Positions 15,947 to 63,438 of a stretch of 64,000 nucleotides of DNA are shown here, in pieces. The position numbers and the translations under genes were made by a program. Source of the DNA: Candidatus Heimdallarchaeum aukensis (GTDB lineage: Archaea > Asgardarchaeota > Heimdallarchaeia > Heimdallarchaeales > Heimdallarchaeaceae). Each line of letters starts with the position of its first letter. Within the stretch, counting starts at the first letter, position 1. The notes under the pieces were generated by a model. The model saw nothing but the letters and a program-made list of their open reading frames with translations. It did not search any database and was not told the DNA's origin. The stretch is from positions 1,696,001 to 1,760,000 of the forward strand of contig CP084166.1 in the NCBI GenBank assembly GCA_021513695.1, written 5' to 3'.

Positions 15947-16465
15947 CTATACCTTTCCTATTCCACTTTTCTCCCATTTCTGAAATTGTTCAAGTAAGTT
16001 TTCTATTTCCCCGGATACACCTTTTTTGTCTACGAAAACAGTTTTTCCTTTAATTCGTATATTGTCTGTTGGTAAATCTAGCAAAAACTTCTGCAATGCT
16101 AGTTCATCAGTAAATCCTAACAGTTCAGCCATTGTCTCTATTTCTATTTCTTCATATTTCATTAATATTTGTTCAAATTTTGCTTTTCTTTCTTCCTCTG
16201 TTAATTCCTTAATTATTTTTTCTCCTTTCTTCTTTATTTTGACAAATCTGTCTTCTTTTAGCTCGCCCTCTATTTTTCTTTTTTCTATTAGTGATTGAAT
16301 TATAGCTCTTACTTCATCTTCTTCTATACCTGTGATTTCAGTTATTTTATTTACTTCTCTAACCATTTCAAGTTGAGTTAAAATTGTTTGTTCTTTTATT
16401 TGTCTCTGTATTTTTGGAATTTTCTTTTTTATATAATATCTTGAAAATGGACCTATGATTTTCAT
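15947..16465 (-). CDS. Tandem winged-helix protein (hypothetical; ESCRT-II Vps25-like architecture possible)
   Basis: 172 aa. Two predicted wH units (ITEITGIEEDEVRAIIQSLIEKRKIEGEL... and IETMAELLGFTDELALQKFLLDLPTDNIRIKGKTVFV). Confidence 0.35.
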   Translation of the reverse strand: MKIIGPFSRYYIKKKIPKIQRQIKEQTILTQLEMVREVNKITEITGIEEDEVRAIIQSLIEKRKIEGELKEDRFVKIKKKGEKIIKELTEEERKAKFEQILMKYEEIEIETMAELLGFTDELALQKFLLDLPTDNIRIKGKTVFVDKKGVSGEIENLLEQFQKWEKSGIGKV

Positions 16466-16664: not shown

Positions 16665-16789
16665 ATTAATTAGTTCTTTTCGCTTTTTGCAGCAGTTTAC
16701 ATTTCTTTTTTCGTAATTGTAACTTGTTAATTGAACATTCTCTTTTAAAAAAGCAATATTTAATTAATTATTCAGTATTTTTTTCTTTA

Positions 16790-18370
16790 ATGAGTAACTC
16801 TTCTACTTTTCAAATTGTTATCCCTCAATCAGGACATCATGAACCAATTACTGTAATTAAGGAAATAAATAGATTAATTTTCACTGGAGATGCCTCAGGT
16901 AAAATTTGTATTTGGAATACATCTTTTGATTCTGAATTAGGTTTTATTAAAGCTCATTCCTCTTCTATTACTGATATTGAATGGTTCCCTTTTTCACCTT
17001 CTATTATCACATCATCACAGGGTTTAGATATTCGCTTATGGTCATGGGATAACTTTTCATTACTGCAATCGCAACAAGTTCATGGGTCCGTTGTTATTAA
17101 CATTGACTTTCTTGGTGACTATATTATCACAGGAGGACGTGACAGATTACTAAAGAAATGGTCTTTTTCTGAGGGAAAATTTCATCTTGTAAAACAGGTT
17201 AAAATTCCTTATTTAGAAGAGTTTTTTGTTTTTGACGATAAAATTCTTATTTCTTGTTCTGACGGATCAATTTCTATTTACGATTCAGATTTTAACCCCT
17301 TATCTTATTTAACCTTGAAAAGAAATAAACTTGTATCTGCAATTAGGAAATCAGGAAAATACCTTTCTACATACAAGAAAGACCCTTATACTGTTATTGG
17401 ACATTTGGAGGGTGTTCGAGGTCTTTCTGTTACTTGTTTCACTTTTGATGAAAAATTTCTTTATTTAGGACACTTCTATGGCATCATTACAGTATGGAAA
17501 AAGAAGGATTTCAAGCTTTCACATATTTTTGTTTCTCACGACAAAAATATTACGTCTATTCATATATTTAAAGGAAAAGTTGTAACAATTGCTCTTGATT
17601 CTAAGGTTGCAGTTTTTGATATAGCCAAAGAAAAACATCATTCCTATGAATTGCCTTATCGTCCTCTATGTTTAATTCAATTAAAAAATGAAAATTTTGT
17701 TATTGGGTTTGATAATGGTTTAATTGGAGTTTATGATAGTAATTTTAATGAAATCAAAAAAAGAGTTCCTGTTCAAAATATTAATTGTTGTTCAATTTCT
17801 CCTGAATTTATTTTAATAGGTACTAATAATGGGTATGTTAAACGATACACTATTCCAAATCTTGAAGAAATAGCACACTTCCATATTAATTCATCAATTC
17901 TAGGAATTTTCTACTATGATAGTATGATAGCTATTATTGATAGTGATAGTAATCTTAGAATATATGAAGCAAATTTAGCTTTTTCAGAGATTAAGCAATT
18001 ATTAATTCCTTTGAGAAAAGAAGAACTAACACTACAAGGATATAATAGATACATTGTTTTGTCTCCCAATTTGATCTTTGATTTTGAAAAGATGGAAATT
18101 ATGAAGGGAGAAGTCTCCTCTTCAACGAAAAAGAAATATTCAGAGTCAATAGTATACTCTTTTTCTTTTGAAACAGGAAATATTATTCTTAACATTGATG
18201 AAAATAAATTAAACATGTTTCTTGAAAAAGGAGACTACTCTGTCTATCCTGAAGGCATTTTGAGAAGTTTGAAAAAACTGATTCACAATGTTTCCTCACC
18301 TTTAAGACAGATTGGTGAATCTACTTGGATTAACATTGACATTCTTGAACAAGCAAGAAAACTCAGATGA
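16790..18370 (+). CDS. WD40 repeat beta-propeller protein (probably two propellers)
   Basis: Repeated GDASGKICIWN / DIRLWSW / GGRDRLLKKWS / GHFYGIITVWK type WD blades across ~525 aa. The ORF-track TTG start at 16724 is upstream of the first ATG at 16790. Confidence 0.75.
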   Translation: MSNSSTFQIVIPQSGHHEPITVIKEINRLIFTGDASGKICIWNTSFDSELGFIKAHSSSITDIEWFPFSPSIITSSQGLDIRLWSWDNFSLLQSQQVHGSVVINIDFLGDYIITGGRDRLLKKWSFSEGKFHLVKQVKIPYLEEFFVFDDKILISCSDGSISIYDSDFNPLSYLTLKRNKLVSAIRKSGKYLSTYKKDPYTVIGHLEGVRGLSVTCFTFDEKFLYLGHFYGIITVWKKKDFKLSHIFVSHDKNITSIHIFKGKVVTIALDSKVAVFDIAKEKHHSYELPYRPLCLIQLKNENFVIGFDNGLIGVYDSNFNEIKKRVPVQNINCCSISPEFILIGTNNGYVKRYTIPNLEEIAHFHINSSILGIFYYDSMIAIIDSDSNLRIYEANLAFSEIKQLLIPLRKEELTLQGYNRYIVLSPNLIFDFEKMEIMKGEVSSSTKKKYSESIVYSFSFETGNIILNIDENKLNMFLEKGDYSVYPEGILRSLKKLIHNVSSPLRQIGESTWINIDILEQARKLR

Positions 18371-33560: not shown

Positions 33561-35858
33561 TTAAAGTTCATAATCATGGGTATGAAACATTACATCGCGG
33601 TTTACAGCTGCTTTAAACATCTGTAGAAGTAATTCATTGTCTGTTCTAATTGCTACAGGCACAGCATCTGGCACCAAAAATGCAAAGATTGCTTCGTCAA
33701 AACCATCCTTAATACCACAGAAAACATCCTTTTTATCGTATTGTCTTAATTTCAAACCTACAAATCGTTCTTTCAAGTTAATTAGAGCATTTCTAAATTT
33801 TCCAGAAGAAAAATCAGAAACAAGTGTTACTCTATTTGCTTTGGTGAACATTGCCATTTCTTCTAACAATGATTCTTCCAGATACGGTGTTATTACTAAC
33901 AACTCTCTACTAGCTCGCATACTTAAATCAGTTAAACTTGCAAGAATTGCTTCTTCCCCAACAATCACTGATACATTGTGATGTCCTCGAATGTTAATAG
34001 AATTTGCTGCTTTATCAATCTGCTTTAACTCACCCTCTCTTGTATTTATTATTTGATAATAGGCTGATGCTTTTTCTTGTAACAAAGCGAGTGTTTCCAT
34101 TATTGCTTCATCAACATCCTTGATAACAGAAGCTACTTGAGCAACAATAGTATCTATTTGTACTTCTTCTGCCTCAATTATTTTAGATGTCAGTTGTTCC
34201 TTTATTTCTTCTGTTTTTTCTTCCATAATTTTTATATCATTGTTTATATGATTCGCAATTTTGTCTTTAGTCTTTAACACTTTGCTTGAAAAGTCTTTAT
34301 CAAACATGGCCAATTTTTCTTTGAAATCTCCACCAATTTTTTTAATATCATCTTTTGTTTTATTTAACTCTGTATTCACTTCATTCTTGAAATCTATCAT
34401 TGTTTTTGAATGCTCATCATGGAACTGCTGGACATTTCCTATAATGTTCGACGAAGTGTTGTCCATACTTTCGGAAATAGTCTTGATTAAATTTGAACTA
34501 ACATCTCTACATGATTCGTAAGAAGAGGTTACATATTTCTCGACTTCATTTTGGATTTTGTTCAGAAGTTCATCAGGGAGGAGTTCTATTTTTTCAGTTG
34601 TTTCTGCTATTATTTTACTCTTTTTTGTTTTAATACTTGTTACTCCACTTAGTTGAAAATGATCAATTTTTTCACGTAGTTTATCTTTTGTTTCGTTAAT
34701 TTTTAAGACGTGTTGATCTACTATTTGGAGACCACTTTCTGAAAAATTATTAGCAAGCAACCTCATTCCATCTCTTACTTCCTGTAGTTTCTCGATTAAC
34801 GGGCTTGCTTTCTTTTTCTTCAGATCTTCTGCGAGATGTAAAGCATCAACTATAGTAGAAGAAAGTTTGTTTATGTTTCTATCAATTTGTTCTACAGATC
34901 TTCTTAGTTCTTGTGTTTGGCGAGTTTGTTCTGTTAAGATGAGATTAATATCTTGCTGCAAGGATTCAGCCAGGTTACGACTCTCCTTAATCCAAGCTTC
35001 AAAAGTATCTTCCCATATTCTTCTATATTCTTTTAGAAACTCTTGTTGTAATTCATTTGCATAGTTTAAATGTTCCTTCAAGACATTATCAAGTTCTGGT
35101 GCAAACTTATCTAAAAAATCTTTATGATTCTCCGTATGTGACTCAAGACCATTCTTTAAGATTTTAAATAATTCTGAAAAATTAGCTGAAAGCTGTTGTT
35201 CTATATTTTTTTTGTTTAATTCACTTCTTTTTTTTGCAGAATGTTCAAACTGTTTTATGAAAGCATCTAATTCTTGCAAATAAGACTCCATTCTGAGAGA
35301 TATGGCAATAGATTGGTTCTGAGCTTCTGCAATTTCTTTAGAAATCAAATTAACTGTTTCATCAAGGATATTAAATGATTCATTTTCTATTGCTTCAGTC
35401 ATTTCTACAAATTGAGAATTAACAGAATCAGTAAGTTGCTTTATTAACCCACTTACAATATGGATATCAAATATGTGCTCATCACTTGAAGTATCTAGTT
35501 TACCACCAAATTGCTTTCGTTTTTCTTTATAAGATGCTGCGTCATTCTTTAAACTATTTATTATTCCTTCAATTGCATATAATGTATCACGTTCTACTGT
35601 TATATATTGTTTCAAAAAAGGAAAAACAGCGAGATATTGTGGAGTTAAACCTTGAATTTTTTTAAGAAAACCGATCTCTTCCAGATTTCTTACTGACTGA
35701 ACTGTTGATAGAGCATCTAGTTGAGTTATAACCATGATTTCGCCTATCGTCGCTTTTCCTAAGCCAAGTATTGTTGTATATATTTTTATATCATTTTCAT
35801 TTAGACCAATTCTGGTTAATAATGGAGGTAATATGTTAACATCACTCATTTGTTTCAC
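33561..35858 (-). CDS. Large coiled-coil protein with N-terminal TrmB-type winged helix and C-terminal globular domain
   Basis: N-terminus LLTRIGLNENDIKIYTTILGLGKATIGEIMVITQLDALSTVQSVRNLEEIGFL..PQYLAVFP closely follows the TrmB wHTH pattern. ~500 aa of heptad-rich sequence. ~130 aa non-repetitive C-terminus. Confidence 0.5.
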   Translation of the reverse strand: MKQMSDVNILPPLLTRIGLNENDIKIYTTILGLGKATIGEIMVITQLDALSTVQSVRNLEEIGFLKKIQGLTPQYLAVFPFLKQYITVERDTLYAIEGIINSLKNDAASYKEKRKQFGGKLDTSSDEHIFDIHIVSGLIKQLTDSVNSQFVEMTEAIENESFNILDETVNLISKEIAEAQNQSIAISLRMESYLQELDAFIKQFEHSAKKRSELNKKNIEQQLSANFSELFKILKNGLESHTENHKDFLDKFAPELDNVLKEHLNYANELQQEFLKEYRRIWEDTFEAWIKESRNLAESLQQDINLILTEQTRQTQELRRSVEQIDRNINKLSSTIVDALHLAEDLKKKKASPLIEKLQEVRDGMRLLANNFSESGLQIVDQHVLKINETKDKLREKIDHFQLSGVTSIKTKKSKIIAETTEKIELLPDELLNKIQNEVEKYVTSSYESCRDVSSNLIKTISESMDNTSSNIIGNVQQFHDEHSKTMIDFKNEVNTELNKTKDDIKKIGGDFKEKLAMFDKDFSSKVLKTKDKIANHINNDIKIMEEKTEEIKEQLTSKIIEAEEVQIDTIVAQVASVIKDVDEAIMETLALLQEKASAYYQIINTREGELKQIDKAANSINIRGHHNVSVIVGEEAILASLTDLSMRASRELLVITPYLEESLLEEMAMFTKANRVTLVSDFSSGKFRNALINLKERFVGLKLRQYDKKDVFCGIKDGFDEAIFAFLVPDAVPVAIRTDNELLLQMFKAAVNRDVMFHTHDYEL

Positions 35859-36061: not shown

Positions 36062-36625
36062 TTAAGCATATAGTTTCTCATAGAAAAGTACAATGTTTTT
36101 TAGCAGAGTTTTAAATGCTTCGTCCACGTTTTCACCAGTCTTTGCTGAAGTTTCAATATATGGAACTGCAAAACCTGACCAAGCTGATAACGATCTTGCA
36201 TATTCTTCTGCTTGTTCCCGTAAAATGGGGTCTTTTGCTGTGTCCCTTAAATCAGATTTATTTCCAATTAAAACAATTGGAACAACACGATTATGATTAT
36301 TTTTTAATAGTTCTGCAATCCACGCAGGTATGTTCTCAAAAGATGACCTACGAGATATATCAAAAACAAGCAGGCAACCAGATGTTCCACGATAATATAC
36401 CTCCCGTACTGCTGAAAATCTTTGTTGCCCAGCTAAATCCCATATTTGTGCTACAAAATCCTGTTGATCTATTTTCAATCTTTTTACCGCAAAATCTGCA
36501 CCTATTGTCATACTATATCCTTCTTTAAACCCCTCACCTAGGTATGTTTTTCTGAGTGATGTTTTTCCTACAGCACCGTCACCGAGTAATGTTACTTTGA
36601 AAATTTTTCGCTGTGATGAACTCAT
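36062..36625 (-). CDS. Ras/Rab-like small GTPase
   Basis: G1 GDGAVGKTS, switch II WDLAGQQRF (DxxGQ), G4 GNKSDL, G5 ETSAKTG. 187 aa. No CaaX. Confidence 0.8.
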   Translation of the reverse strand: MSSSQRKIFKVTLLGDGAVGKTSLRKTYLGEGFKEGYSMTIGADFAVKRLKIDQQDFVAQIWDLAGQQRFSAVREVYYRGTSGCLLVFDISRRSSFENIPAWIAELLKNNHNRVVPIVLIGNKSDLRDTAKDPILREQAEEYARSLSAWSGFAVPYIETSAKTGENVDEAFKTLLKNIVLFYEKLYA

Positions 36626-39138: not shown

Positions 39139-39666
39139 TTAGAATTCTTCTAGTTCTTTTAGTGCGAGTTCAAGATCAGATAAATACTCTTCTTGAACAG
39201 ATTCAACTTTTGGAGTTGGTTCAGCAGTTGAAACTTGTGTTGGTGTACTAACGGGTTGTTTTGCTTCTATGGGTTTTGTTTCAACATCCAATATTGCTCT
39301 GATATTTTCAGACTGTATTTTCATAGTTCGTCTAACCAAACCTAGTTGAATGCCTGCATCTGTTATAAGACAGAGTACAGAGCTACCACAACTAGCAACT
39401 AAAATAAATCCATCTTCAAATTCTGAGATAATAATATCCAAATTTTCTAGACCAACATTTGTTCCTTGTTGTTCAGAAGCTAAATATACTGCACTTGCTA
39501 TTGCTCCTAGAGCTTCTGTTTCAAACTCATCGAAAGCAAATCTTGAAGAATATGCCAGTGTCAACCCTGTTTTATCAGCTAAAATAACATGGTTTATTAA
39601 AGGATCACTTGTAATAATTTCATGGAGAATACTGTTTATCTTATCTACACCGATAATTCTTATCAC
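39139..39666 (-). CDS. Roadblock/LC7 (MglB-like) domain protein with Pro/Thr linker and acidic C-terminal helix
   Basis: LINHVILADKTGLTLAYSS...ALGAIASAVY...FEDGFILVASCGSSVLCLITDAG Roadblock fold signature. C-terminus PVSTPTQVSTAEPTPKVESVQEEYLSDLELALKELEEF. Confidence 0.7.
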   Translation of the reverse strand: MIRIIGVDKINSILHEIITSDPLINHVILADKTGLTLAYSSRFAFDEFETEALGAIASAVYLASEQQGTNVGLENLDIIISEFEDGFILVASCGSSVLCLITDAGIQLGLVRRTMKIQSENIRAILDVETKPIEAKQPVSTPTQVSTAEPTPKVESVQEEYLSDLELALKELEEF

Positions 39667-45266: not shown

Positions 45267-45824
45267 ATGGGAAAGGATATTGAAGTCAAATTTAGAGACT
45301 ATGAAGTGTACAAACTGAGTATCTGCGGACCAGGTCAAGCAGGAAAGACAAGTTTATGTAAAAGACTTGTACATAACAAATTTACCAAATCCTATAAAGA
45401 AACAGTGGGGGCAGAATTTTTTAGCTATAAATTTAACACAAAGAAAGGAAAAAATGTTGGCTTATTTTACGATTTTGCGGGACAACAACGATTTGTAAGT
45501 GTACGTAATGTTCTTTATCCTGGCACAGATGCTGCAGCAGTTGTATTTGATGTTACAAAAAGGGATTCTTTTCGTTCTGTTGCCCAATACATTAGAGAGT
45601 TAAGGACGAAACTTAAAGATGTTGAAATAACAATTGTTGGAAACAAAATTGATTCTAAAAAAAGAGAGATTTCATTTGAAGATGCAAAGAGAATAGCAGA
45701 AAAACTAGGTTGTAAGTACGTTGAAACCTCTGCTGCAACTGGTGAAGGATTAGGAGAATTTTTCAAAACATTAATACATTCTGCAATTTCATATAAAAAG
45801 AAAAAAATAAGTGTTGTAGAATGA
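45267..45824 (+). CDS. Ras/Rab-like small GTPase (second copy)
   Basis: G1 GPGQAGKTS, switch II YDFAGQQRF, G4 GNKID, G5 ETSAATG. 185 aa. Confidence 0.8.
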   Translation: MGKDIEVKFRDYEVYKLSICGPGQAGKTSLCKRLVHNKFTKSYKETVGAEFFSYKFNTKKGKNVGLFYDFAGQQRFVSVRNVLYPGTDAAAVVFDVTKRDSFRSVAQYIRELRTKLKDVEITIVGNKIDSKKREISFEDAKRIAEKLGCKYVETSAATGEGLGEFFKTLIHSAISYKKKKISVVE

Positions 45825-46813: not shown

Positions 46814-47575
46814 GGTAGTGTCTAGTTTTTATACCACCTCCTAGGTAAAAAGGAACTAAGGGGAGGATGTCCTAAGCTCTGATGAGGACGAACGAAATTA
46901 TAATAGAGCATAAAGAGAGTAAGAAAACCAGAAAGATGAGTAGAGCCATAGACGGCACGGATAGGACAAGTGCAGTGGAGAATAGAATGAAACCAACGAT
47001 AACTCTTAAGAGTAGCATTAAAACGTTCAATATAGGAGCGTAAACCACCTTTGATAACGGAGATTTTAATACCGAGACGAAGTAAGACAGGATACCATAC
47101 CCCTGCATCTGTAACGACAATACGAGGCTTAGAACCCCAACATTTGAACCAATAACGAAAAGTTAGTAAACATTCAAGATTACTCCGTCCTTTAGTAATA
47201 CTAAAACCCAGTAAAGTCTTGTTGTAAGGATCTAACGCGAACCACATGTACATTGAGCCTTGAGAGGTCTTAATCTCTGTTTCATCTACTACTATAATCT
47301 CTGGTATTCCCCCTCTCTCTGCTACAACTCTATGTAAACTTTCCCTAAAGAGGCTGAATTTCTTTACCCAATACCATAGTGCCTGGTGTGTTAAACCATT
47401 CTTCCATGCTACTGTCCTCAACCCATTCTTTGAACCGATATATTCATAAATAGCTCTTATGATTATTTTCTTGGGGATTCTGCTCCCTTTAAAAAGGGAG
47501 TATATTCTTAGTTTGTTCATATTTTCACATTAGAATCCCCAATAATATTTTTGTCGGGAGAAACTAGACACCACC
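46814..47575 (-). mobile_element. IS6-family insertion sequence (762 bp) with ~15-bp terminal inverted repeats
   Basis: IRL ggtagtgtctagttt (46814-46828) vs IRR aaactagacaccacc (47561-47575): 14/15 complementary. Single 232-aa DDE transposase. Visibly GC-richer than surroundings. Flanked by direct repeats. Confidence 0.8.
46822..47520 (-). CDS. tnp: IS6-family DDE transposase
   Basis: D (IIVVDETEIK), D ~61 aa later (RIVVTDAGVWY), E 34 aa later (YIERFNATLK), giving DD(34)E spacing. YNFVRPHQSL integrase-core motif. N-terminal HTH. Confidence 0.8.
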   Translation of the reverse strand: MNKLRIYSLFKGSRIPKKIIIRAIYEYIGSKNGLRTVAWKNGLTHQALWYWVKKFSLFRESLHRVVAERGGIPEIIVVDETEIKTSQGSMYMWFALDPYNKTLLGFSITKGRSNLECLLTFRYWFKCWGSKPRIVVTDAGVWYPVLLRLGIKISVIKGGLRSYIERFNATLKSYRWFHSILHCTCPIRAVYGSTHLSGFLTLFMLYYNFVRPHQSLGHPPLSSFLPRRWYKN

Positions 47576-54864: not shown

Positions 54865-55548
54865 TTAATATAGTTGTTCCAAGAGCCTATCAAGATGTTT
54901 TATCATTTCTTTTCTTAATACTTCTTTAGGTGGTTTTTCTAGAGTTTTAATAGCTGTCAAATCTTGTTCTAATATAATATGAGCTGCTATAGTACGAAGT
55001 ATATCATTGTACACACTTTCTGGAAGTTGATGTTCAACACTTGCTATAGGTTCTGCTTTGATCGTTTTTTTCTTTGCTCTAACCGTAGATTTAACAACAG
55101 CTTTTTCTTTTGGAACAATCATTTTTTCTCCAGAGACTAGTGCTCTTTCTTGTTCTTCTATTGCTTGAAAGGTTGTTTTTTCTGTCTTAATGTCTACTGG
55201 CTTCATTACCTCCCGTATTGTTTCTTTACCAAAATCTTCTAATTTTCCTGCAAATATCTCTTGCAATTTTTCTTCTGATTCTTCGTGCTCGATATTTACA
55301 ATCTTATACTTAGAAGAAAAGAATCTTGCATTTAGATTAGTTGCAGCTCTCCCTGCAGCATAAGCTAATGATCTGGTTATACCTGGTTTTCTGTATATCC
55401 AGATCTTTTTTGGTTCCCGAGCTAAAATTAAATATGCCCCATTACCTTTCTCCAAACTTGAAATATCAGCACCTACCTCTGAATAACTCCCATCTTTTTT
55501 TACCGAGAAGATTCTTATTGTCATTGGATCCCCCTTAAAATTACACAC
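54865..55548 (-). CDS. Gelsolin-domain protein with unrelated C-terminal extension (Asgard gelsolin-like candidate)
   Basis: N-terminal ~90 aa (from MTIRIFSV): IRIFSVKKDG..EVGADISSLEKGNGAYLILAREPKKIWIYRKPGITRSLAYAAGRAA parallels the gelsolin G1 core ([50 protein letters not shown]). Confidence 0.4.
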   Translation of the reverse strand: MCNFKGDPMTIRIFSVKKDGSYSEVGADISSLEKGNGAYLILAREPKKIWIYRKPGITRSLAYAAGRAATNLNARFFSSKYKIVNIEHEESEEKLQEIFAGKLEDFGKETIREVMKPVDIKTEKTTFQAIEEQERALVSGEKMIVPKEKAVVKSTVRAKKKTIKAEPIASVEHQLPESVYNDILRTIAAHIILEQDLTAIKTLEKPPKEVLRKEMIKHLDRLLEQLY

Positions 55549-55607
55549 TAGTAATATAATCAGAAGGGAATACTAAAATTTTTCCTTTTTTCTTCAAACT
55601 AAATGTA

Positions 55608-56327
55608 CTATTCTGCATAAAGAGTTTTATCTTCTATATTTGCATTTGAAAACGCTCTTTTTCTTCGTAAACAGCTTTCACATTTTCCGCAATGAATTGG
55701 TCTTCTATCTTTAGTCCATCCAGTAAGTCTGTAACATGAAGACGAAAACTCATATTTTGCACTTTTTTCATTTAGAAACAACACAATATCCTTTTTATCA
55801 GAAGCAATAAAAGGAGAAATAACTTTTACTTCATTCATACAACCAAGTTTCATAGCGGCATTCATTCGTTCAACAAAATCTTTGGTGTTGTCAGGAAAGG
55901 TTTCTCCCTCTTCTATATTTGCACCAAAGATGATATCTACTGTATTTTTTTCGCTGTCTGCTGCCGATGCAGCTATAGACAAAAATAGTAAATTTCTACC
56001 TGGAACCCACACTTTTTTTGCAGAATCTATGGTTATATCCTTGTCATCTAGTTTTTCAAATTCTTTAAATTCAGGGAGTTCTTCTACAGATTGAGAGAGA
56101 TTGGAACCTGCTTTAGCAGTAAACTCCTTTAGAAATGGCAGAGAGATAATTTTTGATTCTATAGAGAAAAAATCTGCAAATGTCTTATTAGTTCTCTCTA
56201 TTACTTCATCTTCTTTACTCCCATACAAGAATGATAGTAAAGAGACTGAATCATATTTTTCTAATGCCCAATACAAGCAAGCTGTAGAATCTAATCCTCC
56301 TGAAAATAATACTATGGCTTTTTTCAT
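55608..56327 (-). CDS. queC: 7-cyano-7-deazaguanine synthase QueC
   Basis: PP-loop SGGLDST. C-terminal Zn site CGKCESC. Confidence 0.85.
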   Translation of the reverse strand: MKKAIVLFSGGLDSTACLYWALEKYDSVSLLSFLYGSKEDEVIERTNKTFADFFSIESKIISLPFLKEFTAKAGSNLSQSVEELPEFKEFEKLDDKDITIDSAKKVWVPGRNLLFLSIAASAADSEKNTVDIIFGANIEEGETFPDNTKDFVERMNAAMKLGCMNEVKVISPFIASDKKDIVLFLNEKSAKYEFSSSCYRLTGWTKDRRPIHCGKCESCLRRKRAFSNANIEDKTLYAE

Positions 56328-56366: not shown

Positions 56367-57710
56367 TTAATCCTTTCTCAATTTTACTATGAAAAAGCCT
56401 TCTGTATTATGTAAGCTAGGAGTTAACATTTGTGCTTTATTTTCAAGTGATTCTATTCTTATCCCTATCATCGGTTCCATTTTTTCGATACTAAAATTTG
56501 TGTTCTTGGAGAGAAACTCCTCTATTACATATACATTTTCATCTTTAAATATTGAACAAGTTGAGTAGGTAATTTCTCCTCCGTCCTTAAGTACTCTTGC
56601 TGATTCATCCAACAACTTCTTTTGAATAGCTGTATAAAATTTCAGATCTCTCTTTTCCAATCGAAATTTCGTTTCAGGCCGGGTAGAATAAGTCCCAGAA
56701 CCTGTACATGGCGGATCAAGAAGTATTTTGTTAAACTTATTATTGAATAAACTTGATATCATTCTTGAATCAGTGTTTATAATCTCAATTCCATTAACTC
56801 CTAGAAGATCCATTCTCTTTTTTAAGATAGATACTCTTCGTTCATTTAACTCACAAGCAAAAATATTGTTTCCTGAATTATTTAGTGCAGCTAAATGAGA
56901 AGTTTTTTGTCCTGGTGCAGCACATACATCTAGAATAAGATCATGAGGCTTTGGTTTTACGATTAAAGAAACCAATGCTGAAGATTTTTGTTGAATTACT
57001 ATTTTTCCATTTTTGAAAATATCTAATCTAGGAAGAGCTACTGGAGACTTTTTAATTTGTATTAAGTTTGGTATATCCTTATCAACTTCATATTCAATGT
57101 CAAAAGAGGTTAATACTTGCTCTATTTCCTTCATTTCAGATTTTAAGGTGTTTACCCTTATGTATGTCGGAAGAACAGTTTGGATAGAATTAAGAAAATC
57201 CAGTGAAAAGTTCTCTCCCCATTGAGAAAATAACTTTCTGATGATCCATGTTGGAGTGTAATATTTCAGGGATAATAGGCTGATTTCATCTTTATTTCTT
57301 TCTAACATCTGCATTGACACAGATTCAATATTCTTCACAATGCCTTCAAAATCAAAATTTTTGTTGTTATTGAAGAGAGTGTTGAACTCTTTTTTTATGT
57401 CTCCTAACATCGAACTGTACACTTGAGCATATTTAACAATAAAAGTGATTAAACGTAACAATGCCTTTTTTTCGAATGAGAGTTTCTTTAGTGAGAAATA
57501 AGAAGAACTTTCTTTTATATAAAGATCTATCACATTTAATTTCCCAATAATATTAAAAACGAAGTAGTATATCCTTGCTTCTTCATCTTTGTTCAATGTA
57601 TATTCAGATCTAACCCTATTCATTGCGTTTCGAATAGAATCTCCCTTTTCTACTTGAACCAATGCAGAAAGAATGGGTTTTATGATTATGTTCATGTCGC
57701 TCCCTCTCAT
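56367..57710 (-). CDS. NOL1/NOP2/Sun-family RNA cytosine-C5 methyltransferase
   Basis: SAM motif DLILDVCAAPGQKTSHLA, catalytic ILLDPPCTGSGT and TYSTCSI motifs. N-terminal NusB-like region. Confidence 0.85.
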   Translation of the reverse strand: MRGSDMNIIIKPILSALVQVEKGDSIRNAMNRVRSEYTLNKDEEARIYYFVFNIIGKLNVIDLYIKESSSYFSLKKLSFEKKALLRLITFIVKYAQVYSSMLGDIKKEFNTLFNNNKNFDFEGIVKNIESVSMQMLERNKDEISLLSLKYYTPTWIIRKLFSQWGENFSLDFLNSIQTVLPTYIRVNTLKSEMKEIEQVLTSFDIEYEVDKDIPNLIQIKKSPVALPRLDIFKNGKIVIQQKSSALVSLIVKPKPHDLILDVCAAPGQKTSHLAALNNSGNNIFACELNERRVSILKKRMDLLGVNGIEIINTDSRMISSLFNNKFNKILLDPPCTGSGTYSTRPETKFRLEKRDLKFYTAIQKKLLDESARVLKDGGEITYSTCSIFKDENVYVIEEFLSKNTNFSIEKMEPMIGIRIESLENKAQMLTPSLHNTEGFFIVKLRKD

Positions 57711-57734: not shown

Positions 57735-58544
57735 TTAGTATTGGTCATAATCATGAGGAGTTTTTAATTTTATTGAATCTTGAGGGAGAAATAGCGTTGG
57801 TATCTCAACATCCAGCTGAATTGTTTGTGCAAGTTTTCTAAGTAATATATTCAAATAGTCAATGTGGTTCAAATATATTAGGTTTAAGTTTGCCTTTTTG
57901 TACAAAGGCAACTTTTGTGAATTTATATGAAAAGAGATTACAGTATCCACACCCGAATCCTTTATTACAAATATATCATCTATGGTAAATGGAGCAGAAG
58001 GATTTTCTACAATTAGTTTGGAGTTATCATCTTTCAAATCTAAAGACACCCAATTTTTTGAGAGATGAGAGAGAGATGTCATGAATTCGTCAAAAGAAAT
58101 AGGTGATACAGAGAATATTGTACTATTAGAATTATGTAAAGTGATAGGTTCTTCATCGAGATAATTCATCCCAATTGTATTTAGAAAATACTGAAAACCA
58201 GTTTTAAACAGCCAACTACGTGAAATATTGATTGTAATAATATTGTTAATTGCTAATGTCCTTATTAATTCATATTCTTTATCAATAAGCTGACCTTTCT
58301 CAGCCTTTGCAAAAGGTATAGACTCTGCTTTTAATACAAGATTCAATTTGTTTTCTAACATAAAACCGATATTGCTATTCGAAAAATAAGGAGTAACTAA
58401 TATACCAGATACATGAAGAGCTTTCAATCTTTCTTCATTAGTTGGAGCAAACTCAACAATAAAAGCTTGAGAGGACATATTATCAGTAATAAATGTTCTC
58501 TTGAGCTGTTTAAGAAATTGATAGAGTGAAGTGACCATGAACAA
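57735..58544 (-). CDS. Hypothetical protein embedded in the preQ0 cluster
   Basis: 269 aa. No motif recognised. Confidence 0.3.
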   Translation of the reverse strand: MFMVTSLYQFLKQLKRTFITDNMSSQAFIVEFAPTNEERLKALHVSGILVTPYFSNSNIGFMLENKLNLVLKAESIPFAKAEKGQLIDKEYELIRTLAINNIITINISRSWLFKTGFQYFLNTIGMNYLDEEPITLHNSNSTIFSVSPISFDEFMTSLSHLSKNWVSLDLKDDNSKLIVENPSAPFTIDDIFVIKDSGVDTVISFHINSQKLPLYKKANLNLIYLNHIDYLNILLRKLAQTIQLDVEIPTLFLPQDSIKLKTPHDYDQY

Positions 58545-58590: not shown

Positions 58591-59052
58591 TTATTCAGAA
58601 AAAACAGCTATACTTGTTGGAGTTTCCGATATAGAAACTGTGATTTTTAATTCTGGATAATTTTCTTTAATTAGATTATGGATATATCTTGCTAACAATT
58701 CTGCAGTAGTAGCTTCAATAGGAAGAATCAGCACATCTTCTTTTGGAAAACGATAATATTTATTTTCTGTAGTTAAAATTTTTACTTCCCGTTCATCAGT
58801 GGTTATATTAAATTCTTTACTATGTAAAGGCACTAGTACCTTATGATCAAATTGTTTTACGATGTTCTTAACTTTAGTTTTAAATTCTCCAAAATCTACC
58901 ACCATCTTTTTTTCATTTAACTGACCTTCGGCCTCAACCTTTAATCTATAGTTGTGCCCATGCAATCTAGAGCACTTATCATGGTGAGACAATATATGAG
59001 CTGCTGAAAACGAAAGTTTATCTCCTGAAATTTGTATCTTCATTTTTATCAC
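58591..59052 (-). CDS. queD: 6-carboxy-5,6,7,8-tetrahydropterin synthase QueD (PTPS family)
   Basis: FSAAHILSHHDKCSRLHGHNYRLKVE zinc/catalytic motif. Confidence 0.85.
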   Translation of the reverse strand: MIKMKIQISGDKLSFSAAHILSHHDKCSRLHGHNYRLKVEAEGQLNEKKMVVDFGEFKTKVKNIVKQFDHKVLVPLHSKEFNITTDEREVKILTTENKYYRFPKEDVLILPIEATTAELLARYIHNLIKENYPELKITVSISETPTSIAVFSE

Positions 59053-59672
59053 TTGATTACTCTTGTTTTAACAATGTCATGTTTAACTTTATCTATTTCT
59101 TGAACATATTTTTTTGCTACAGAAATCGCGAATGACAATAGCTCTTCCTCTGAGAAACCTATTTCTTTTAAGCCTATTGCTTGAACATGGTTAGGCACTC
59201 CATCACTTGAGATGTTTATTCCAAAATGAATTTTTCCGCTATTTCCTCCTATTGTTGCAATACCCACATTTAGTTTTTTTCCATTAACGTAAATATCAGT
59301 TCCTTTACGTTGAATTAAGTTAACACCTTTTTCAACTAATGATTCTATAACAACAATTGTTAAAATTCTAAGTCTATAATACATAATTTCTAGATTTGGT
59401 GGCTGAACATCAAATTCTTCAACTATAAAATGAATTGCATCATCAGAACTAATTAGAACTTTAGCTAAATGAAATTCATTTAAAATATCTTTTAGATCAA
59501 GCATTTCTTTTGGGGTTAGTTTCATATCACCTCTAAATATAAGTACACTATTTCCAGGAACATTATAGTGTTCATATGTGTATAGAGACTGAATCTGTGA
59601 ACCATCGTAGCATATCTTTTCATTGAAATCCAGATATTTGATTGTATAATCTTCTAGTTTTTCTTCACTCAT
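59049..59672 (-). CDS. Hypothetical protein embedded in the preQ0 cluster
   Basis: 207 aa. Overlaps queD by 4 bp and folE2 by 8 bp (operonic). No motif recognised. Confidence 0.3.
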   Translation of the reverse strand: MSEEKLEDYTIKYLDFNEKICYDGSQIQSLYTYEHYNVPGNSVLIFRGDMKLTPKEMLDLKDILNEFHLAKVLISSDDAIHFIVEEFDVQPPNLEIMYYRLRILTIVVIESLVEKGVNLIQRKGTDIYVNGKKLNVGIATIGGNSGKIHFGINISSDGVPNHVQAIGLKEIGFSEEELLSFAISVAKKYVQEIDKVKHDIVKTRVIK

Positions 59673-60627
59673 CTTTTTTTTCCTCCAAGAGCTCTTTCTT
59701 CAAGTCTCCAATAGTTGTGCAAACTTCAGCTACTGCATCATGTTGGTGAATACTTTCATAATTAATCTGTTTTGCATATACTTGTACTTCATCGGGTAAA
59801 TGCCCAAACTTGAAAACTACATTCTGTAATAATGTTCTGATTACGTCTTCTACGAAACCAGGTTTTTTGTGAGCGTATAACACTACTGCTTGTTCATCTT
59901 TTCTTTTTAACACTTCATGAATTGGAGCGCTCATACTTATTTCCATTAGTGCTATAATATCATCTAACTCAATTCTCGGAGAGTCTTCAGGTAATTCAAA
60001 AAGAAGTATTGCTTTTGATCTTTGATTGTGTGCAGCAAGTGGAATTATATCCAAAATTTCATTAATTTGTTCATCTGAATAACCTTTTTTCTTTAATTGT
60101 TCTTTAGCAAAATCACGCGATAATTCCTCTGAACAGGGACAAACTGTAGTTCCTTGTACTTCAGCGCCTATAATTTTTTTAATTCTGATTTCTCCATTAA
60201 TAACTTCAGCTTTTGCTCCAGCTTTTAATTTATGAACACTTGATTTTTTCTTAAGCAAAGGTTCAGAAAAAGTTTCAGCTTCATAATCAGCTTCAAGTTT
60301 CACTTCTGAAAATTTAGCTCCATCTTGTATTTCTATAACTTTTCTTGCTATTCGGGAGCATAATACTTCTGTATCTGAAATAACTTCGCTCAGTAGTTCT
60401 GCCGTCACTTCATTTATTGCTTCAATATTTCGTGACATGTGTATTCCTCTTTGTGTAGAAACAAGGTCTACATACACATCTATTTTAGCTGATAACTCAT
60501 TATACGAGTTCTTCCATTTTCTTCTAATTATTTTAGGTATATTACTAACACCTACTCGCTGTAAACTTAACTTTATTAGTGCTTTATCAGCTTGCACATC
60601 AGAAATAATTTCACTATTTAAACTCAT
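59665..60627 (-). CDS. folE2: GTP cyclohydrolase FolE2/MptA family (GCYH-IB type)
   Basis: LVSTQRGIHMSR and TTVCPCSEELS signature motifs of the DUF198 GTP cyclohydrolase family. Confidence 0.75.
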   Translation of the reverse strand: MSLNSEIISDVQADKALIKLSLQRVGVSNIPKIIRRKWKNSYNELSAKIDVYVDLVSTQRGIHMSRNIEAINEVTAELLSEVISDTEVLCSRIARKVIEIQDGAKFSEVKLEADYEAETFSEPLLKKKSSVHKLKAGAKAEVINGEIRIKKIIGAEVQGTTVCPCSEELSRDFAKEQLKKKGYSDEQINEILDIIPLAAHNQRSKAILLFELPEDSPRIELDDIIALMEISMSAPIHEVLKRKDEQAVVLYAHKKPGFVEDVIRTLLQNVVFKFGHLPDEVQVYAKQINYESIHQHDAVAEVCTTIGDLKKELLEEKKDE

Positions 60628-60635
60628 TTTTTCAC

Positions 60636-61460
60636 CTACAAGATATTGATTAATTTATGAACTTGAACTGAAAGTCCGATTTTTTCTGAAGAAAGATATT
60701 CACCTGCTATCTCGGTAAAAGACCTAATTTTTTTCCATGCGGGAGGTTGAATTTCAAGTCCTTTCTTTGGAGTAACAGGTTGAATTACTAAAGGGATTTG
60801 ATGCTTACCACACATACTAGAAATATAACGAAAATCTTCTTCAGTTGATTTGTTAGAGATTACAACTTTTGCAAATACTTTTACGCCATTTTTTTGAAGA
60901 ATTCTGCACATTTTGAGTTCTTGTTCAGCTAGTTTTTTCCAATCTTTAGCTGACTGTGCACTCCTATCTTTAATATCTACACAAGCGTAATCAATTTTAC
61001 TGGAAACCATCTCTAATTCACTAAGATTTTCAGTATAAGCTGTTTCCAAATATAAAAGATACCCCCGTTTCTTTAATTCATCAATAAGATTTGAGACGAA
61101 ATCAACCTGTAACAAGGGCTCTCCTCCCGTTAAACTAATAGAATGAAGATCTGGTGTTTTTAGGTTTTCTATAATTTCTACTAGTTGAGCGACTGAAATA
61201 GGGTTCTCAACTTTTTTAAATTCTTGCTCTCCAGCCTTCTTTTCAACAAAAAAGATTTTTGGTTTTAATATCTGAGCTTTGGGGCTATCACACCACACGC
61301 AACCTTTTGTTCCACAAGCCCCAAGTGCCAAAGGACAGCCTGCAAAACGGACAAATATCTGTCTTAAACCATAACAGCTACCAGAAAGTGAAGCACCTTC
61401 ACCTTGGAAAGAAGAGAATATTTCTTGTATAAAACCGTATTTAGTTAGCTCTTTTTTCAT
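60636..61460 (-). CDS. queE: 7-carboxy-7-deazaguanine synthase QueE (radical SAM)
   Basis: EIFSSFQGEGASLSG and VRFAGCPLALGACGTKGCVWCDS cluster motif. Confidence 0.8.
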   Translation of the reverse strand: MKKELTKYGFIQEIFSSFQGEGASLSGSCYGLRQIFVRFAGCPLALGACGTKGCVWCDSPKAQILKPKIFFVEKKAGEQEFKKVENPISVAQLVEIIENLKTPDLHSISLTGGEPLLQVDFVSNLIDELKKRGYLLYLETAYTENLSELEMVSSKIDYACVDIKDRSAQSAKDWKKLAEQELKMCRILQKNGVKVFAKVVISNKSTEEDFRYISSMCGKHQIPLVIQPVTPKKGLEIQPPAWKKIRSFTEIAGEYLSSEKIGLSVQVHKLINIL

Positions 61461-61564: not shown

Positions 61565-62398
61565 TCACTCATATTTTCTTTTAATTGCTGACAATACTCT
61601 TTCTTGCCAGTCAACTAGCTTTTCAGCGAGCTCTTTATGTAAATCGGGGTGTAAGGGGGCATCAGCTTTAAGTTTATCTATTTTTTTCAACCAACTATTA
61701 ATTTCATACAACATTGGGCTCATGCCCACGCTCGTTTCTACTTCATCACGCAACTCTTCAAGGTACTTTAGAACAGAGCTAGATATGGATTGTGGACTTA
61801 TCATTTGAGATATGTGTTTAAACTTATTCTTTATTGCGTCCATTGCAACTTGTGCATCAGCAGCAGCAGTAGAGATAACAGGTTCTTCTGCTATTCCGGG
61901 TGAGGTATATTCTGTACTAGTTTCTTTTTGGGGAGCATGTTCTTTTATCTCAAAATCATTGTTAAGTACTTCAGAACTAGATAAAGTAGTTGCAGGGGTA
62001 GGCTCTGAAGGAACTGGTTTAGGTTCAATCTTTTTAGAAATTTCTTGTTTTGATGCAACCTCAACTAATTTTTTATCAAGATTTGCAGTTAATTGCTCAA
62101 TCTTTGTTTCTAAAATTCCTAAAATATTTCGAATTGAAGGTATATCTGTAAGATATTGTAAATTTTCCAAGGAACCATTTGCTAATTTATCACTAACAAG
62201 AGAAAAAGTTTCGATCTTAGTTTTTATGTCATCAACTTTTGCATTCAATTCATTTAAATTAAATCCTGCTATTTGTTTCTCAAAATTTGATAATTGTTCA
62301 GAAAAATGACTTATTGTATTTTGAATTGCGTTTACAGATTCTGCTAGGGTGTTGATTGAATTAACTAATTCTACAAGTTTATTTTCAACATCACTCAT
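61565..62398 (-). CDS. Hypothetical coiled-coil protein with Pro/Thr-rich linker (paralog of 5079..5999)
   Basis: N-terminus KLVELVNSINTLAESVNAIQNTISHFSEQLSNFEKQI aligns with KSLVNSVAVLKEMVENIVKVVQKRFEEFEKEI of the 5079 protein. Then KIEPKPVPSEPTPATTLSS linker and helical C-terminus. Confidence 0.45.
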   Translation of the reverse strand: MSDVENKLVELVNSINTLAESVNAIQNTISHFSEQLSNFEKQIAGFNLNELNAKVDDIKTKIETFSLVSDKLANGSLENLQYLTDIPSIRNILGILETKIEQLTANLDKKLVEVASKQEISKKIEPKPVPSEPTPATTLSSSEVLNNDFEIKEHAPQKETSTEYTSPGIAEEPVISTAAADAQVAMDAIKNKFKHISQMISPQSISSSVLKYLEELRDEVETSVGMSPMLYEINSWLKKIDKLKADAPLHPDLHKELAEKLVDWQERVLSAIKRKYE

Positions 62399-62967: not shown

Positions 62968-63438
62968 ATGAGCTTGGATGAAGAAGAATTTTTTGCAAGA
63001 TTAGCTATTGAAGCAAATGAATTAAAACGTGAGCTTCCTACTTTTAAACCAGTTGATGGAGATATGACTCATTTACGTGGATTTATTTTTGGAACAGGAC
63101 TTTATGAAGGAGGAGTATTTGTTTTAGACATAATCATCCCTAGAGAATACCCATTTAAACCACCAAAAGTAGAATGTTTAACAAAAATTTTTCATCCTAA
63201 CTTCTTTAATAGAAGAATTTGTGTAGGGGTTTTAGGCGCAGATTGGACACCAGCAAATAACCTTGTTGATGTAATTGAGAGCATACGATTTTTGCTTGGT
63301 GAACCAAATCCTGACGATCCTTTAAATTCCACGGCAGCCAACTTAATGAAAAGAGATCTTAAAGCATTTGAACAAAAAGCCAGAGAATACGTGGAAAAAT
63401 ACGCATCATTTAGTCAAATACAAGAATATGGTTTATAA
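62968..63438 (+). CDS. Ubiquitin-conjugating enzyme E2 (catalytically competent UBC domain)
   Basis: FHPNFFNRRICVGVLGADWTPANNLVDVIESIRFLLGEPNPDDPLN: HPN, active-site Cys, Trp and PNPDDPL all present. 156 aa. Confidence 0.85.
   Translation: MSLDEEEFFARLAIEANELKRELPTFKPVDGDMTHLRGFIFGTGLYEGGVFVLDIIIPREYPFKPPKVECLTKIFHPNFFNRRICVGVLGADWTPANNLVDVIESIRFLLGEPNPDDPLNSTAANLMKRDLKAFEQKAREYVEKYASFSQIQEYGL

What the first reader, a model, noticed from the sequence alone, without database searches (positions are those of the whole stretch)
54865..55548. Gelsolin-domain protein with a novel C-terminal half
Residues ~10-95 match the gelsolin/villin G-domain core position by position. These are the beta-strand IRIFSVK, the EV..S..S, then hydrophobic xxLIL and IWIY.KPG, and the long helix RSLAYAAGRAA, against human G1 [41 protein letters not shown]. 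Single-domain gelsolins with extra domains ('GelX'-like) are known from Asgard archaea. The ~130-aa Lys/Glu-rich C-terminal half here is unassigned.
Basis: partly seen in the sequence, partly recalled or inferred. Interest (0 to 1): 0.55.

Follow-up and report, generated by a model that had tools for sequence, protein, structure and literature searches.

The report
Divergent gelsolin-domain protein of Heimdallarchaeum
This gene from a Heimdall-group Asgard archaeon encodes a real but highly divergent, so far unannotated gelsolin-type (actin-regulator) domain, joined by a floppy linker to a small helical module with no known relatives; it is a new variant of the known Asgard single-domain gelsolins.

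Summary
The ORF is real. Its likely start is the ATG at 55524, giving 219 aa on the minus strand. It is under purifying selection (dN/dS 0.10 against the Ca. Heimdallarchaeum endolithica orthologue).

Residues 1-93 are a genuine gelsolin domain:
- AlphaFold gives pLDDT 81-93.
- Foldseek agrees.
- A family-only profile aligns with canonical Asgard gelsolin domains, some above the Pfam PF00626 threshold, at 99.3% probability (E 2e-20).

Pfam itself misses the protein. The gelsolin DWG motif is degraded (Ala/Tyr/Lys here), and the positions that align with gelsolin's type II calcium ligands are not acidic.

The rest of the protein is a fast-evolving Lys/Glu-rich disordered linker with a short ΦΦxGE motif, followed by a conserved 54-residue helical module (KPPK, ...LLxxxY-COOH). 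That module has no Pfam or PDB relatives.

The family is tiny: about 20 clusters among 1.8 billion representatives. All named members come from Heimdallarchaeota.

In all 17 Heimdallarchaeaceae-type loci examined, the gene lies directly downstream of queC, despite local rearrangements. I cannot explain this.

Most likely function: a calcium-independent actin regulator of the "1DGelX" architectural class. Actin binding is not shown.

The parts
54865..55524 (-). Coding sequence of the gelsolin-domain protein (219 aa plus TAA stop at 54865-54867). The conserved start is the ATG at 55524, not the GTG at 55548.
   Evidence: ORF list. Orthologue N-termini. dN/dS 0.10 against the Ca. H. endolithica orthologue.
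55246..55524 (-). Gelsolin-type domain, residues 1-93.
55321..55374 (-). Long helix, residues 51-68 (RSLAYAAGRAATNLNARF). This is the most conserved stretch of the family and corresponds to the main helix of gelsolin domains. The R-A-A-x-x-L core is shared with ProGel (TRVAAKL) and with canonical Asgard single-domain gelsolins (ARAAxxL).
   Evidence: Nine of the 21 invariant positions of the family N-domain lie between G48 and N63. Alignments.
55030..55245 (-). Lys/Glu-rich disordered linker, residues 94-165. It varies in length and sequence between orthologues.
   Evidence: pLDDT below 50. 15-22% identity between genera. dN/dS 0.57. Composition.
55120..55140 (-). Short conserved motif inside the linker, residues 129-135 (LVSGEKM; family consensus Φ-Φ-x-G-E-K). 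It is a candidate short linear binding motif.
   Evidence: Present in 22 of 23 distinct Heimdallarchaeaceae-type sequences and absent from the three divergent members.
54868..55029 (-). Conserved C-terminal helical module, residues 166-219. It has helices 169-186, 189-194 and 200-218 and ends in ...LLEQLY-COOH. It has no detectable relatives outside this family.
   Evidence: AF2 pLDDT 67-85. dN/dS 0.073. Profile A6 finds nothing in PDB or Pfam. It matches only family members among all proteins fetched.
54925..54936 (-). KPPK motif (residues 197-200) in the loop before the last helix. P198 is nearly invariant.
   Evidence: Alignments. Motif census.
55530..55534 (-). GGGGG Shine-Dalgarno-like run 5 nt upstream of the ATG. 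GGGG(T/G) lies at the same place in most orthologous loci.
   Evidence: Sequence reading only.
55571..55595 (-). Purine-rich plus A/T-rich stretch in the queC-gel spacer (GAAAAAAGGAAAAATTTTAGTA). It may be an archaeal BRE/TATA element. Comparable purine-rich + TTTTTAT elements occur in the other loci.
   Evidence: Inference from sequence only. No archaeal promoter model was run.
55608..56327 (-). queC (7-cyano-7-deazaguanine synthase). It is the invariant, co-directional upstream neighbour of this gene in Heimdallarchaeaceae-type genomes.
   Evidence: Pfam QueC 1.4e-52. TIGR00364 equivalog above cut-off. Adjacency in 17 of 17 distinct loci across four arrangement classes.

Best explanation
The gene encodes a calcium-independent actin-binding protein of the Asgard 'single gelsolin domain plus extension' type.

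Shown:
- Residues 1-93 are a homologue of the gelsolin domain, structurally closest to Thorarchaeota ProGel.
- The domain and a 54-residue C-terminal helical module are both under strong purifying selection.
- They are joined by a roughly 70-residue disordered, fast-evolving Lys/Glu-rich tether.

Inferred:
- The gelsolin domain docks on actin through its long helix. That helix carries the invariant L-A-Y-x-A-G-R-A-A-T-N-L, with the R-A-A-x-x-L core shared with actin-bound ProGel.
- Binding does not need calcium, because the positions aligned with gelsolin's type II Asp and Glu ligands are Gly29 and Leu53.
- The tethered C-terminal module, and perhaps the ΦΦxGE linker motif, supplies a second contact. 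This could be self-association or binding to the side of an actin filament or to another partner.
- That second contact would turn a weak monovalent binder like ProGel into a capping, severing or bundling factor. Akil et al. proposed the same for domain X of Thor 1DGelX, and it is analogous to villin's headpiece.
For: Fold:
- AF2 N-domain pLDDT 81-93, with the gelsolin order of strands and helices.
- Foldseek puts ProGel first, E 6.8e-4, prob 1.0.

Sequence homology:
- The family profile reaches PF00626-positive Asgard proteins.
- hhalign 99.3%, E 1.8e-20.
- A canonical-only HMM hits this ORF at E 1.1e-12.
- One remote homologue (P0029, Odinarchaeum) is named 'Gelsolin-like domain-containing protein' in UniRef.

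Selection: dN/dS is 0.018 for the N-domain, 0.073 for the C-module and 0.57 for the linker.

The long helix is the most conserved segment.

Biological setting:
- All named homologues are from Heimdallarchaeota.
- Actin, profilin and gelsolins are reported across Asgard phyla, in a paper on the Heimdallarchaeum genomes (PMC8813620).
- Every Asgard gelsolin-domain protein tested so far acts on actin. Thor 1DGelX severs without calcium, and its extension was proposed to bind filaments (PMC7444086).
Against: - Nothing here tests actin binding.
- The gelsolin DWG motif, present in ProGel and 2DGel (PMC7444086), is degraded. The Asp position is Ala35 in this protein (Asp in most orthologues, Ser in two), Trp is replaced by an invariant Tyr44, and Gly by Lys46.
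- Pfam PF00626 gives no hit. The family-only HMM reaches ProGel in the PDB only at E 0.41.
- The C-module shows no similarity to WH2, villin headpiece or any other actin-binding module.
- The only conserved genomic association is with queC, a tRNA/nucleobase-modification gene, not with cytoskeletal genes.
- No actin, profilin or other gelsolin gene lies in the window.
Confidence: 0.6

Rival explanations
1. The gelsolin fold has been recruited away from actin. The protein would be an adaptor or regulator working with QueC and the neighbouring 7-deazaguanine/pterin-type biosynthesis genes, for example by scaffolding or localising preQ0/archaeosine synthesis. That would explain why it stays glued to queC.
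For: - queC→gel are adjacent and co-directional in all 17 distinct Heimdallarchaeaceae-type loci, covering at least 13 species.
- The surrounding blocks (radical-SAM/MptA/DUF366/PTPS and RsmB/ORF269) have been inverted or moved into four different arrangements around them.
- The spacer is only 8-29 nt in L005.
- The DWG motif is lost.
Against: - The three more divergent proteins with the same two-module architecture (P0018, P0019, P0015) are not next to queC.
- Most queC-gel spacers carry their own BRE/TATA-like and SD-like elements, so independent transcription is possible.
- The genomes compared are all from one family-level clade, so synteny may be inherited rather than selected.
- I know of no non-cytoskeletal, non-trafficking role for this fold (my own knowledge).
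Confidence: 0.12
2. It is a gelsolin-fold protein that binds some other, unknown partner (neither actin nor the QueC pathway), as with the gelsolin-like domains of Sec23/Sec24. The C-terminal helical module would act as a C-terminal peptide or helix ligand for another machine, for example as a MIT/ESCRT-type or PCNA-type tail motif.
For: - The invariant C-terminal ...D-x-L-L-x-x-Φ-Y-COOH looks like a terminal docking motif.
- The DWG motif is lost.
Against: - The nearest sequence relatives are Asgard gelsolin-family proteins.
- No profile hit supports any specific alternative.
Confidence: 0.2
3. It is not a functional gene: a chance ORF or a decaying pseudogene whose resemblance to gelsolin is coincidental.
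For: Pairwise similarity to human gelsolin or to ProGel is not significant. No Pfam or NCBIfam family is assigned.
Against: - Full-length orthologues are intact in at least 13 species.
- dN/dS is 0.10 overall and 0.018 in the domain.
- The fold is predicted with confidence.
- Profile-profile E is 1.8e-20.
Confidence: 0.01

Closest known systems
Thorarchaeota ProGel (PDB 7C2F; Akil et al. 2020, PMC7444086)
   Different: ProGel is the domain alone (88-94 aa) and keeps the DWG motif. This protein has lost the W and G, carries a 126-residue extension, and is only 17-18% identical. The family-only HMM reaches ProGel at E 0.41.
Asgard 1DGelX architecture (single gelsolin domain plus 'domain X'; Akil et al. 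2020)
   Same: Same architectural class: one N-terminal gelsolin domain followed by a non-gelsolin extension. Thor 1DGelX severs actin independently of calcium, and its extension is proposed to supply filament binding. That is the model adopted here.
   Different: The C-module profile matches none of the other single-gelsolin-domain Asgard proteins retrieved.
Asgard single-gelsolin-domain proteins with a Pro-rich linker and a different C-terminal domain (P0021-P0035, e.g. Odinarchaeum yellowstonii WEU39881.1 'Gelsolin-like domain-containing protein')
   Same: These are the nearest sequence relatives of the N-domain outside the family (HMM E 1e-4 to 4e-6 in 1.84 billion proteins; hhalign 99.3%). 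The layout is also the same: N-terminal gelsolin domain, low-complexity linker, C-terminal module.
   Different: They keep I-W-K-G and D-x-G-x-E, and several pass the PF00626 threshold. Their C-terminal domain (...VPPG..RE.IIIG..Y.V.E...FFG...) is unrelated to the KPPK/LLDxxY module.
Eukaryotic villin and gelsolin
   Different: The eukaryotic proteins have three to six domains, are calcium-regulated and keep DWG. The villin headpiece (PF02209) and WH2 (PF02205) give no match to the C-module, so the villin resemblance is analogy only.
Heimdallarchaeota and Lokiarchaeota 2DGel (PDB 7WHF, 7WHG; PMC9433394)
   Different: They have two gelsolin domains with type I/II calcium sites and calcium control. 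This protein has one domain, with Gly29 and Leu53 at the positions aligned with the type II ligands.

Membership tests
Gelsolin domain superfamily (gelsolin/villin-type fold) | Fold: a five- to six-stranded mixed sheet packed between a long helix and a short C-terminal helix, in the order β-β-(α)-β-β-αlong-β-αshort. | tested here: met
Gelsolin domain superfamily (gelsolin/villin-type fold) | Statistically supported sequence homology to recognised gelsolin domains. | tested here: met
   hhalign family-only against canonical Asgard gelsolin domains: 99.3%, E 1.8e-20, 94 columns. Canonical-only HMM hits the ORF at E 1.1e-12. The canonical set includes proteins above the PF00626 gathering score.
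Pfam PF00626 (Gelsolin repeat) | Score at or above the curated gathering threshold (21 bits). | tested here: not met
   No PF00626 hit even at E≤10 for this protein, nor for family members P0011, P0013, P0015, P0018, P0019.
Gelsolin family proper (as opposed to cofilin/ADF-H) | DWG motif: Asp hydrogen-bonded to Trp, followed by Gly (Akil et al. 2020; replaced by WP in cofilins). | tested here: not met
   The aligned positions are Ala35 (Asp in most orthologues, Ser in two), Tyr44 (invariant in the family) and Lys46. Motif definition from PMC7444086 and bioRxiv 768580.
Calcium-regulated gelsolins (2DGel, eukaryotic gelsolin/villin) | Type II Ca2+ site: Asp before strand C and Glu at the start of the long helix (D187 and E209 in human G2; residue numbers from my own knowledge). 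| tested here: not met
   The aligned positions are Gly29 and Leu53, non-acidic in nearly all of the family (only P0012 has Asp at 29). Offsets were checked against 2DGel3 and G2 in the alignment and.
Gelsolin family (functional) | Binds actin: monomer sequestering, capping, severing or bundling. | not testable with these tools
   No complex prediction or biochemistry was available. Support is indirect: the long helix is conserved and the R-A-A-x-x-L core is shared with actin-bound ProGel.
Asgard 1DGelX | One N-terminal gelsolin domain followed by a non-gelsolin C-terminal extension. | tested here: met
   Domain at residues 1-93, then a 126-residue extension with no second gelsolin domain.
Asgard 1DGelX | Extension homologous to domain X of Thor 1DGelX. 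| not testable with these tools
   The Thor 1DGelX sequence is not held (no supplement text). The C-module profile matches no other gelsolin-domain protein retrieved and nothing in PDB or Pfam.
Asgard ProGel | Gelsolin/cofilin core alone (about 90 aa), with no extension. | tested here: not met
   219 aa, with a conserved C-terminal module under purifying selection.
Villin-type (gelsolin domains plus headpiece) and WH2-containing actin binders | C-terminal villin headpiece (PF02209) or WH2 motif (PF02205). | tested here: not met
   Neither family hits the full protein or any of 15 C-module sequences at E≤10. The C-module profile gives no headpiece or WH2 chain in the PDB. The Φ-K-x-Φ-x-KPPK stretch only loosely recalls LKKV.
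ADF-H / cofilin | ADF-H fold with extra helices and a WP motif. | tested here: not met

The most novel reading that the evidence does not exclude
In Heimdallarchaeaceae, a gelsolin-fold protein that has lost the DWG signature no longer works on actin. Instead it is a dedicated partner of QueC and 7-deazaguanine (preQ0/archaeosine-type) biosynthesis. That is why queC→gel has stayed a fixed two-gene unit through at least four local rearrangements. This would be the first gelsolin-domain protein tied to nucleobase or tRNA modification.
Probability: 0.08. Interest if true: 0.8.

Novelty: new variant of a known kind. Interest (0 to 1): 0.45.

Why it matters
Heimdall-group archaea are the closest known archaeal relatives of eukaryotes, and their actin regulators are used to reconstruct how the eukaryotic cytoskeleton arose. 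This family is annotated 'hypothetical' wherever a source names it, and Pfam and NCBIfam miss it. Gelsolin counts in Heimdallarchaeaceae genomes are therefore underestimates.

The family adds a third kind of C-terminal partner to the single-domain gelsolin theme. It also shows that the DWG motif is dispensable for keeping the fold.

If it binds actin, the 54-residue C-module would be a new, small module that binds actin or drives self-association, and would be worth characterising. If it does not, it documents functional drift of a hallmark eukaryotic-signature domain inside Asgard archaea.

This extends known biology rather than overturning it.

Tried and rejected
- **Direct family assignment.** Pfam and NCBIfam scans of the protein gave nothing. 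The only Pfam line was TnsA_C at E 0.02, below threshold.
- **Lap adhesin hit.** phmmer against the PDB gave a 'hit' to a Lap adhesin at E 1.4e-5. I rejected it. It is the sum of four repeats matching a 22-24-residue stretch (DGSYS..G.DISSL), each with an individual E of 30-130, in an unrelated repeat protein.
- **Pairwise comparisons.** BLASTP to human gelsolin G2 (E 0.56) and to ProGel (no alignment) showed that pairwise comparison cannot establish the relationship. The family-only HMM against the PDB ranks ProGel first but at E 0.41.
- **WH2 or villin headpiece in the C-module.** No Pfam or PDB support.
- **Terminal docking motifs.** I considered by eye a PIP-box-like (D-x-x-L-x-x-Φ-Y-COOH) or MIM-like C-terminal motif. 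There is no test and no support, so these are left as speculation.
- **Long coiled coil.** The helices are only about 18-19 residues, with 4 of 6 a/d positions hydrophobic. That fits a small helical bundle better than a long coiled coil.
  - The search for homologous proteins with A2 added only P0019.
  - The Foldseek afdb50 library was unavailable.
  - No supplement text is held for Akil et al. 2020, so the Thor 1DGelX sequence could not be compared.
- **Cytoskeletal genes nearby.** I found none in the window.

Full report
**The ORF**

The window holds an ORF at 54865..55548 on the minus strand. All orthologues begin M-x-x-R-(I/V)-F. A GGGGG run lies 5 nt upstream of the ATG at 55524. I therefore take the CDS as 54865..55524 (219 aa).

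It is a real gene:
- Intact full-length orthologues exist in at least 13 species-level genomes.
- Against the 93%-identical orthologue of Ca. Heimdallarchaeum endolithica PR6, dN/dS is 0.10 overall.
- By region, dN/dS is 0.018 for residues 1-93, 0.57 for 94-165 and 0.073 for 166-219.

**Is the gelsolin resemblance more than chance?**

Not as a pairwise comparison:
- BLASTP against ProGel gives no alignment.
- Pfam and NCBIfam assign nothing.
- The human segment is gelsolin domain 2, not G1 (with the 5fae description).

Structure and profiles settle the question:
- AlphaFold2 with 8 and then 17 family sequences gives the N-domain pLDDT 81-93. The element order is β3-8, β14-17, α21-25, β30-35, β40-45, long α51-67, β74-78, α80-91.
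- Foldseek independently ranks ProGel first (E 6.8e-4, prob 1.0, TMt 0.74).

**Sequence bridge to recognised gelsolins**

- A profile of the family, searched against 1.84 billion representative proteins, finds only 30 proteins at E≤1e-3.
- The weaker hits (E 4e-6 to 8e-4) are mostly Asgard proteins of 91-376 aa. Their N-terminal domains carry I-W-K-G and D-x-G-x-E.
- Four of them pass the PF00626 gathering score: P0033 28.8, P0034 23.9, P0032 23.0 and P0029 22.1 bits, against a cut-off of 21. Five more are just below it.
- Named members come from Odinarchaeum ('Gelsolin-like domain-containing protein'), Thorarchaeota, 'Asgardarchaeia' and Wukongarchaeota.
- hhalign of a family-only alignment against a canonical-only alignment gives 99.3% probability, E 1.8e-20, over 94 essentially gap-free columns.
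- An HMM built only from the canonical set hits this ORF, and no other ORF in the window, at E 1.1e-12.

The N-terminal domain is therefore a true, divergent member of the gelsolin domain family.

**How the domain differs from canonical gelsolins**

- The DWG motif, which Akil et al. use to separate gelsolins and ProGel from cofilins, is degraded. The aligned positions are Ala35 (Asp in most orthologues, Ser in two), an invariant Tyr44 and Lys46. This probably explains why Pfam misses the family.
- The positions aligned with the type II calcium ligands (Asp187 and Glu209 of human G2; residue numbers from my own knowledge, offsets checked on the alignment) are Gly29 and Leu53. Calcium control is therefore unlikely, as for ProGel and 1DGelX.
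- The most conserved stretch is the long helix. Nine of the 21 invariant N-domain positions lie between G48 and N63.
- The helix's R-A-A-x-x-L core is shared with canonical Asgard single-domain gelsolins (A-R-A-A-x-x-L) and with ProGel (T-R-V-A-A-K-L), which was crystallised on actin.

**The rest of the protein**

- Residues 94-165 are Lys/Glu-rich (13 K, 11 E of 72) and predicted disordered (pLDDT below 50). They are only 15-22% identical between genera and evolve almost neutrally.
- Inside this linker, a short Φ-Φ-x-G-E-(K) motif (LVSGEKM here) is kept in 22 of 23 distinct Heimdallarchaeaceae-type sequences.
- Residues 166-219 form a conserved helical module: α169-186, α189-194, α200-218, at pLDDT 67-85.
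- The module has a K-P-P-K/R loop and an invariant ...L-L-x-x-x-Y at the very C-terminus.
- A profile of this module finds nothing in the PDB or Pfam, including WH2 and villin headpiece.
- Among all proteins retrieved, the module occurs only in this family. It is absent from the other single-domain Asgard gelsolins, which carry an unrelated C-terminal domain.

**Distribution**

- The core family (193-221 aa) is confined to Heimdallarchaeota MAGs and genomes, including AB_125 and the complete Ca. H. endolithica chromosome.
- Flanking proteins are 82-98% identical to H. endolithica. The two described Heimdallarchaeum species share about 90% AAI (PMC8813620). The window therefore probably comes from Ca. 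H. aukensis or a close congener; this is an inference.
- Three more divergent proteins (P0015, P0018, P0019) share both modules. They keep the Gly of DWG and have a Trp two positions upstream of the usual one. Their taxonomy is undetermined.

**Genomic context**

- In the window, the gene is the last of a co-directional run: radical-SAM (QueE-like), MptA-type GTP cyclohydrolase, DUF366, PTPS/QueD, ORF269, RsmB, QueC, gel. It converges on a nitroreductase gene, with the S13/S4/S11 ribosomal genes beyond.
- Across 17 distinct loci, the neighbourhood behaves as three rigid blocks: [rSAM-MptA-DUF366-PTPS], [QueC-gel] and [ORF269-RsmB].
- These blocks occur in four different relative arrangements. 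queC→gel is adjacent and co-directional in every case, with spacers of 8-85 nt.
- Most spacers contain a purine-rich + TTTTTAT element and a GGGG(T/G) run, so the gene may have its own promoter (reading only).
- The three divergent two-module proteins are not next to queC.
- I therefore treat the queC linkage as a real but unexplained clade-specific feature. It supports a minority rival model (a non-actin role tied to QueC) but does not outweigh the homology evidence.

**Most likely function**

- Every Asgard gelsolin-domain protein tested so far regulates actin (PMC7444086, PMC9433394).
- Actin, profilin and gelsolins are reported across Asgard phyla, in a paper on the Heimdallarchaeum genomes.
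- The best-supported model is a calcium-independent actin regulator. The gelsolin domain supplies one actin contact through its long helix. The tethered C-terminal module, and perhaps the linker motif, supplies a second contact or self-association.
- This is the logic Akil et al. proposed for 1DGelX, and it is analogous, not homologous, to villin's headpiece.
- The fold, the homology, the selection pattern and the architecture are shown. Actin binding, calcium independence and the role of the C-module are inferred.

**Novelty**

- Single-domain gelsolins with extensions are known from Asgard archaea.
- This family is annotated 'hypothetical' wherever a source names it and is missed by Pfam and NCBIfam.
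- I found no description of it in the Asgard gelsolin papers I read or in a 2026 structure-based survey of Asgard proteins.
- It has lost the DWG signature, carries a private C-terminal module, and shows a peculiar fixed linkage to queC.
- I rate it a new variant of a known kind, of moderate interest.

Noticed in passing
window 54865-56327 (-); loci L001, L003, L005-L019: queC and the gelsolin-domain gene form an invariant, co-directional two-gene unit in all 17 distinct Heimdallarchaeaceae-type loci. The neighbouring blocks (rSAM-MptA-DUF366-PTPS and ORF269-RsmB) occur in four different arrangements around it. There is no functional explanation. Three divergent family members lack the linkage.
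   Followed up: yes
window 57735-58544 (-) and 56367-57710 (-): A 269-aa ORF with no Pfam or NCBIfam match is always paired with the RsmB/F-type rRNA methyltransferase gene, directly upstream of it on the same strand (31-38% identity across genera, 82% to H. endolithica). It may be an uncharacterised partner of the methyltransferase.
   Followed up: partly
window 58591-61460 (-): A conserved block holds a radical-SAM protein (QueE-like, below NCBIfam cut-offs), an MptA-type GTP cyclohydrolase (TIGR00294 above cut-off), DUF366 and PTPS/QueD. DUF366 has no assigned function but is fixed inside this GTP-derived deazaguanine/pterin cluster.
   Followed up: partly
window residue 35 of the protein (about 55420-55422): The window protein has Ala at the Asp position of the DWG motif. 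The 93%-identical orthologues (P0001, H. endolithica) and most others have Asp; P0003 and P0008 have Ser.
   Followed up: partly
L001 8001-8651 (P0002): This orthologue runs 10 residues past the otherwise terminal conserved Tyr (…LLDLLYWAIVKVTFLH). That suggests a shifted or lost stop codon in that lineage.
   Followed up: no
window 36062-36625 (-), 45267-45824 (+), 39139-39666 (-), 7408-8073 (-), 62968-63438 (+), 15947-16465 (-), 16724-18370 (+): Several eukaryotic-signature-type genes are scattered among housekeeping genes: two Ras-family small GTPases, a Roadblock/LC7 protein, a UEV/E2-like and a canonical E2 (UQ_con) protein, a PCI-domain protein and a 548-aa WD40 protein.
   Followed up: no
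window 33561-35858 (-); L005 698-2998: A 765-aa protein has an N-terminal TrmB-type HTH and a long apolipoprotein-like helical-repeat region. A 766-aa counterpart lies just upstream of queC-gel in L005.
   Followed up: no
window 46822-47520 (-): A 232-aa ORF has a sub-threshold integrase-core (rve_3) match. It may be a transposase remnant between a 3-hydroxyacyl-CoA dehydrogenase gene and TFIIB.
   Followed up: no
window 61565-62398 (-): A 277-aa ORF with no Pfam hit is conserved near the cluster in most loci (34-58% identity). Its only NCBIfam signal is a far sub-threshold match to 'Sel_Asgard', a putative selenocysteine system protein (23.5 bits against a cut-off of 132).
   Followed up: no
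protein residues 5-30 (window about 55435-55512): The stretch DGSYSEVGADISSL matches a repeated motif in a bacterial Lap adhesin (PDB 6xi3). This gives a misleading whole-sequence E of 1.4e-5 in phmmer. Each repeat match is individually insignificant.
   Followed up: yes
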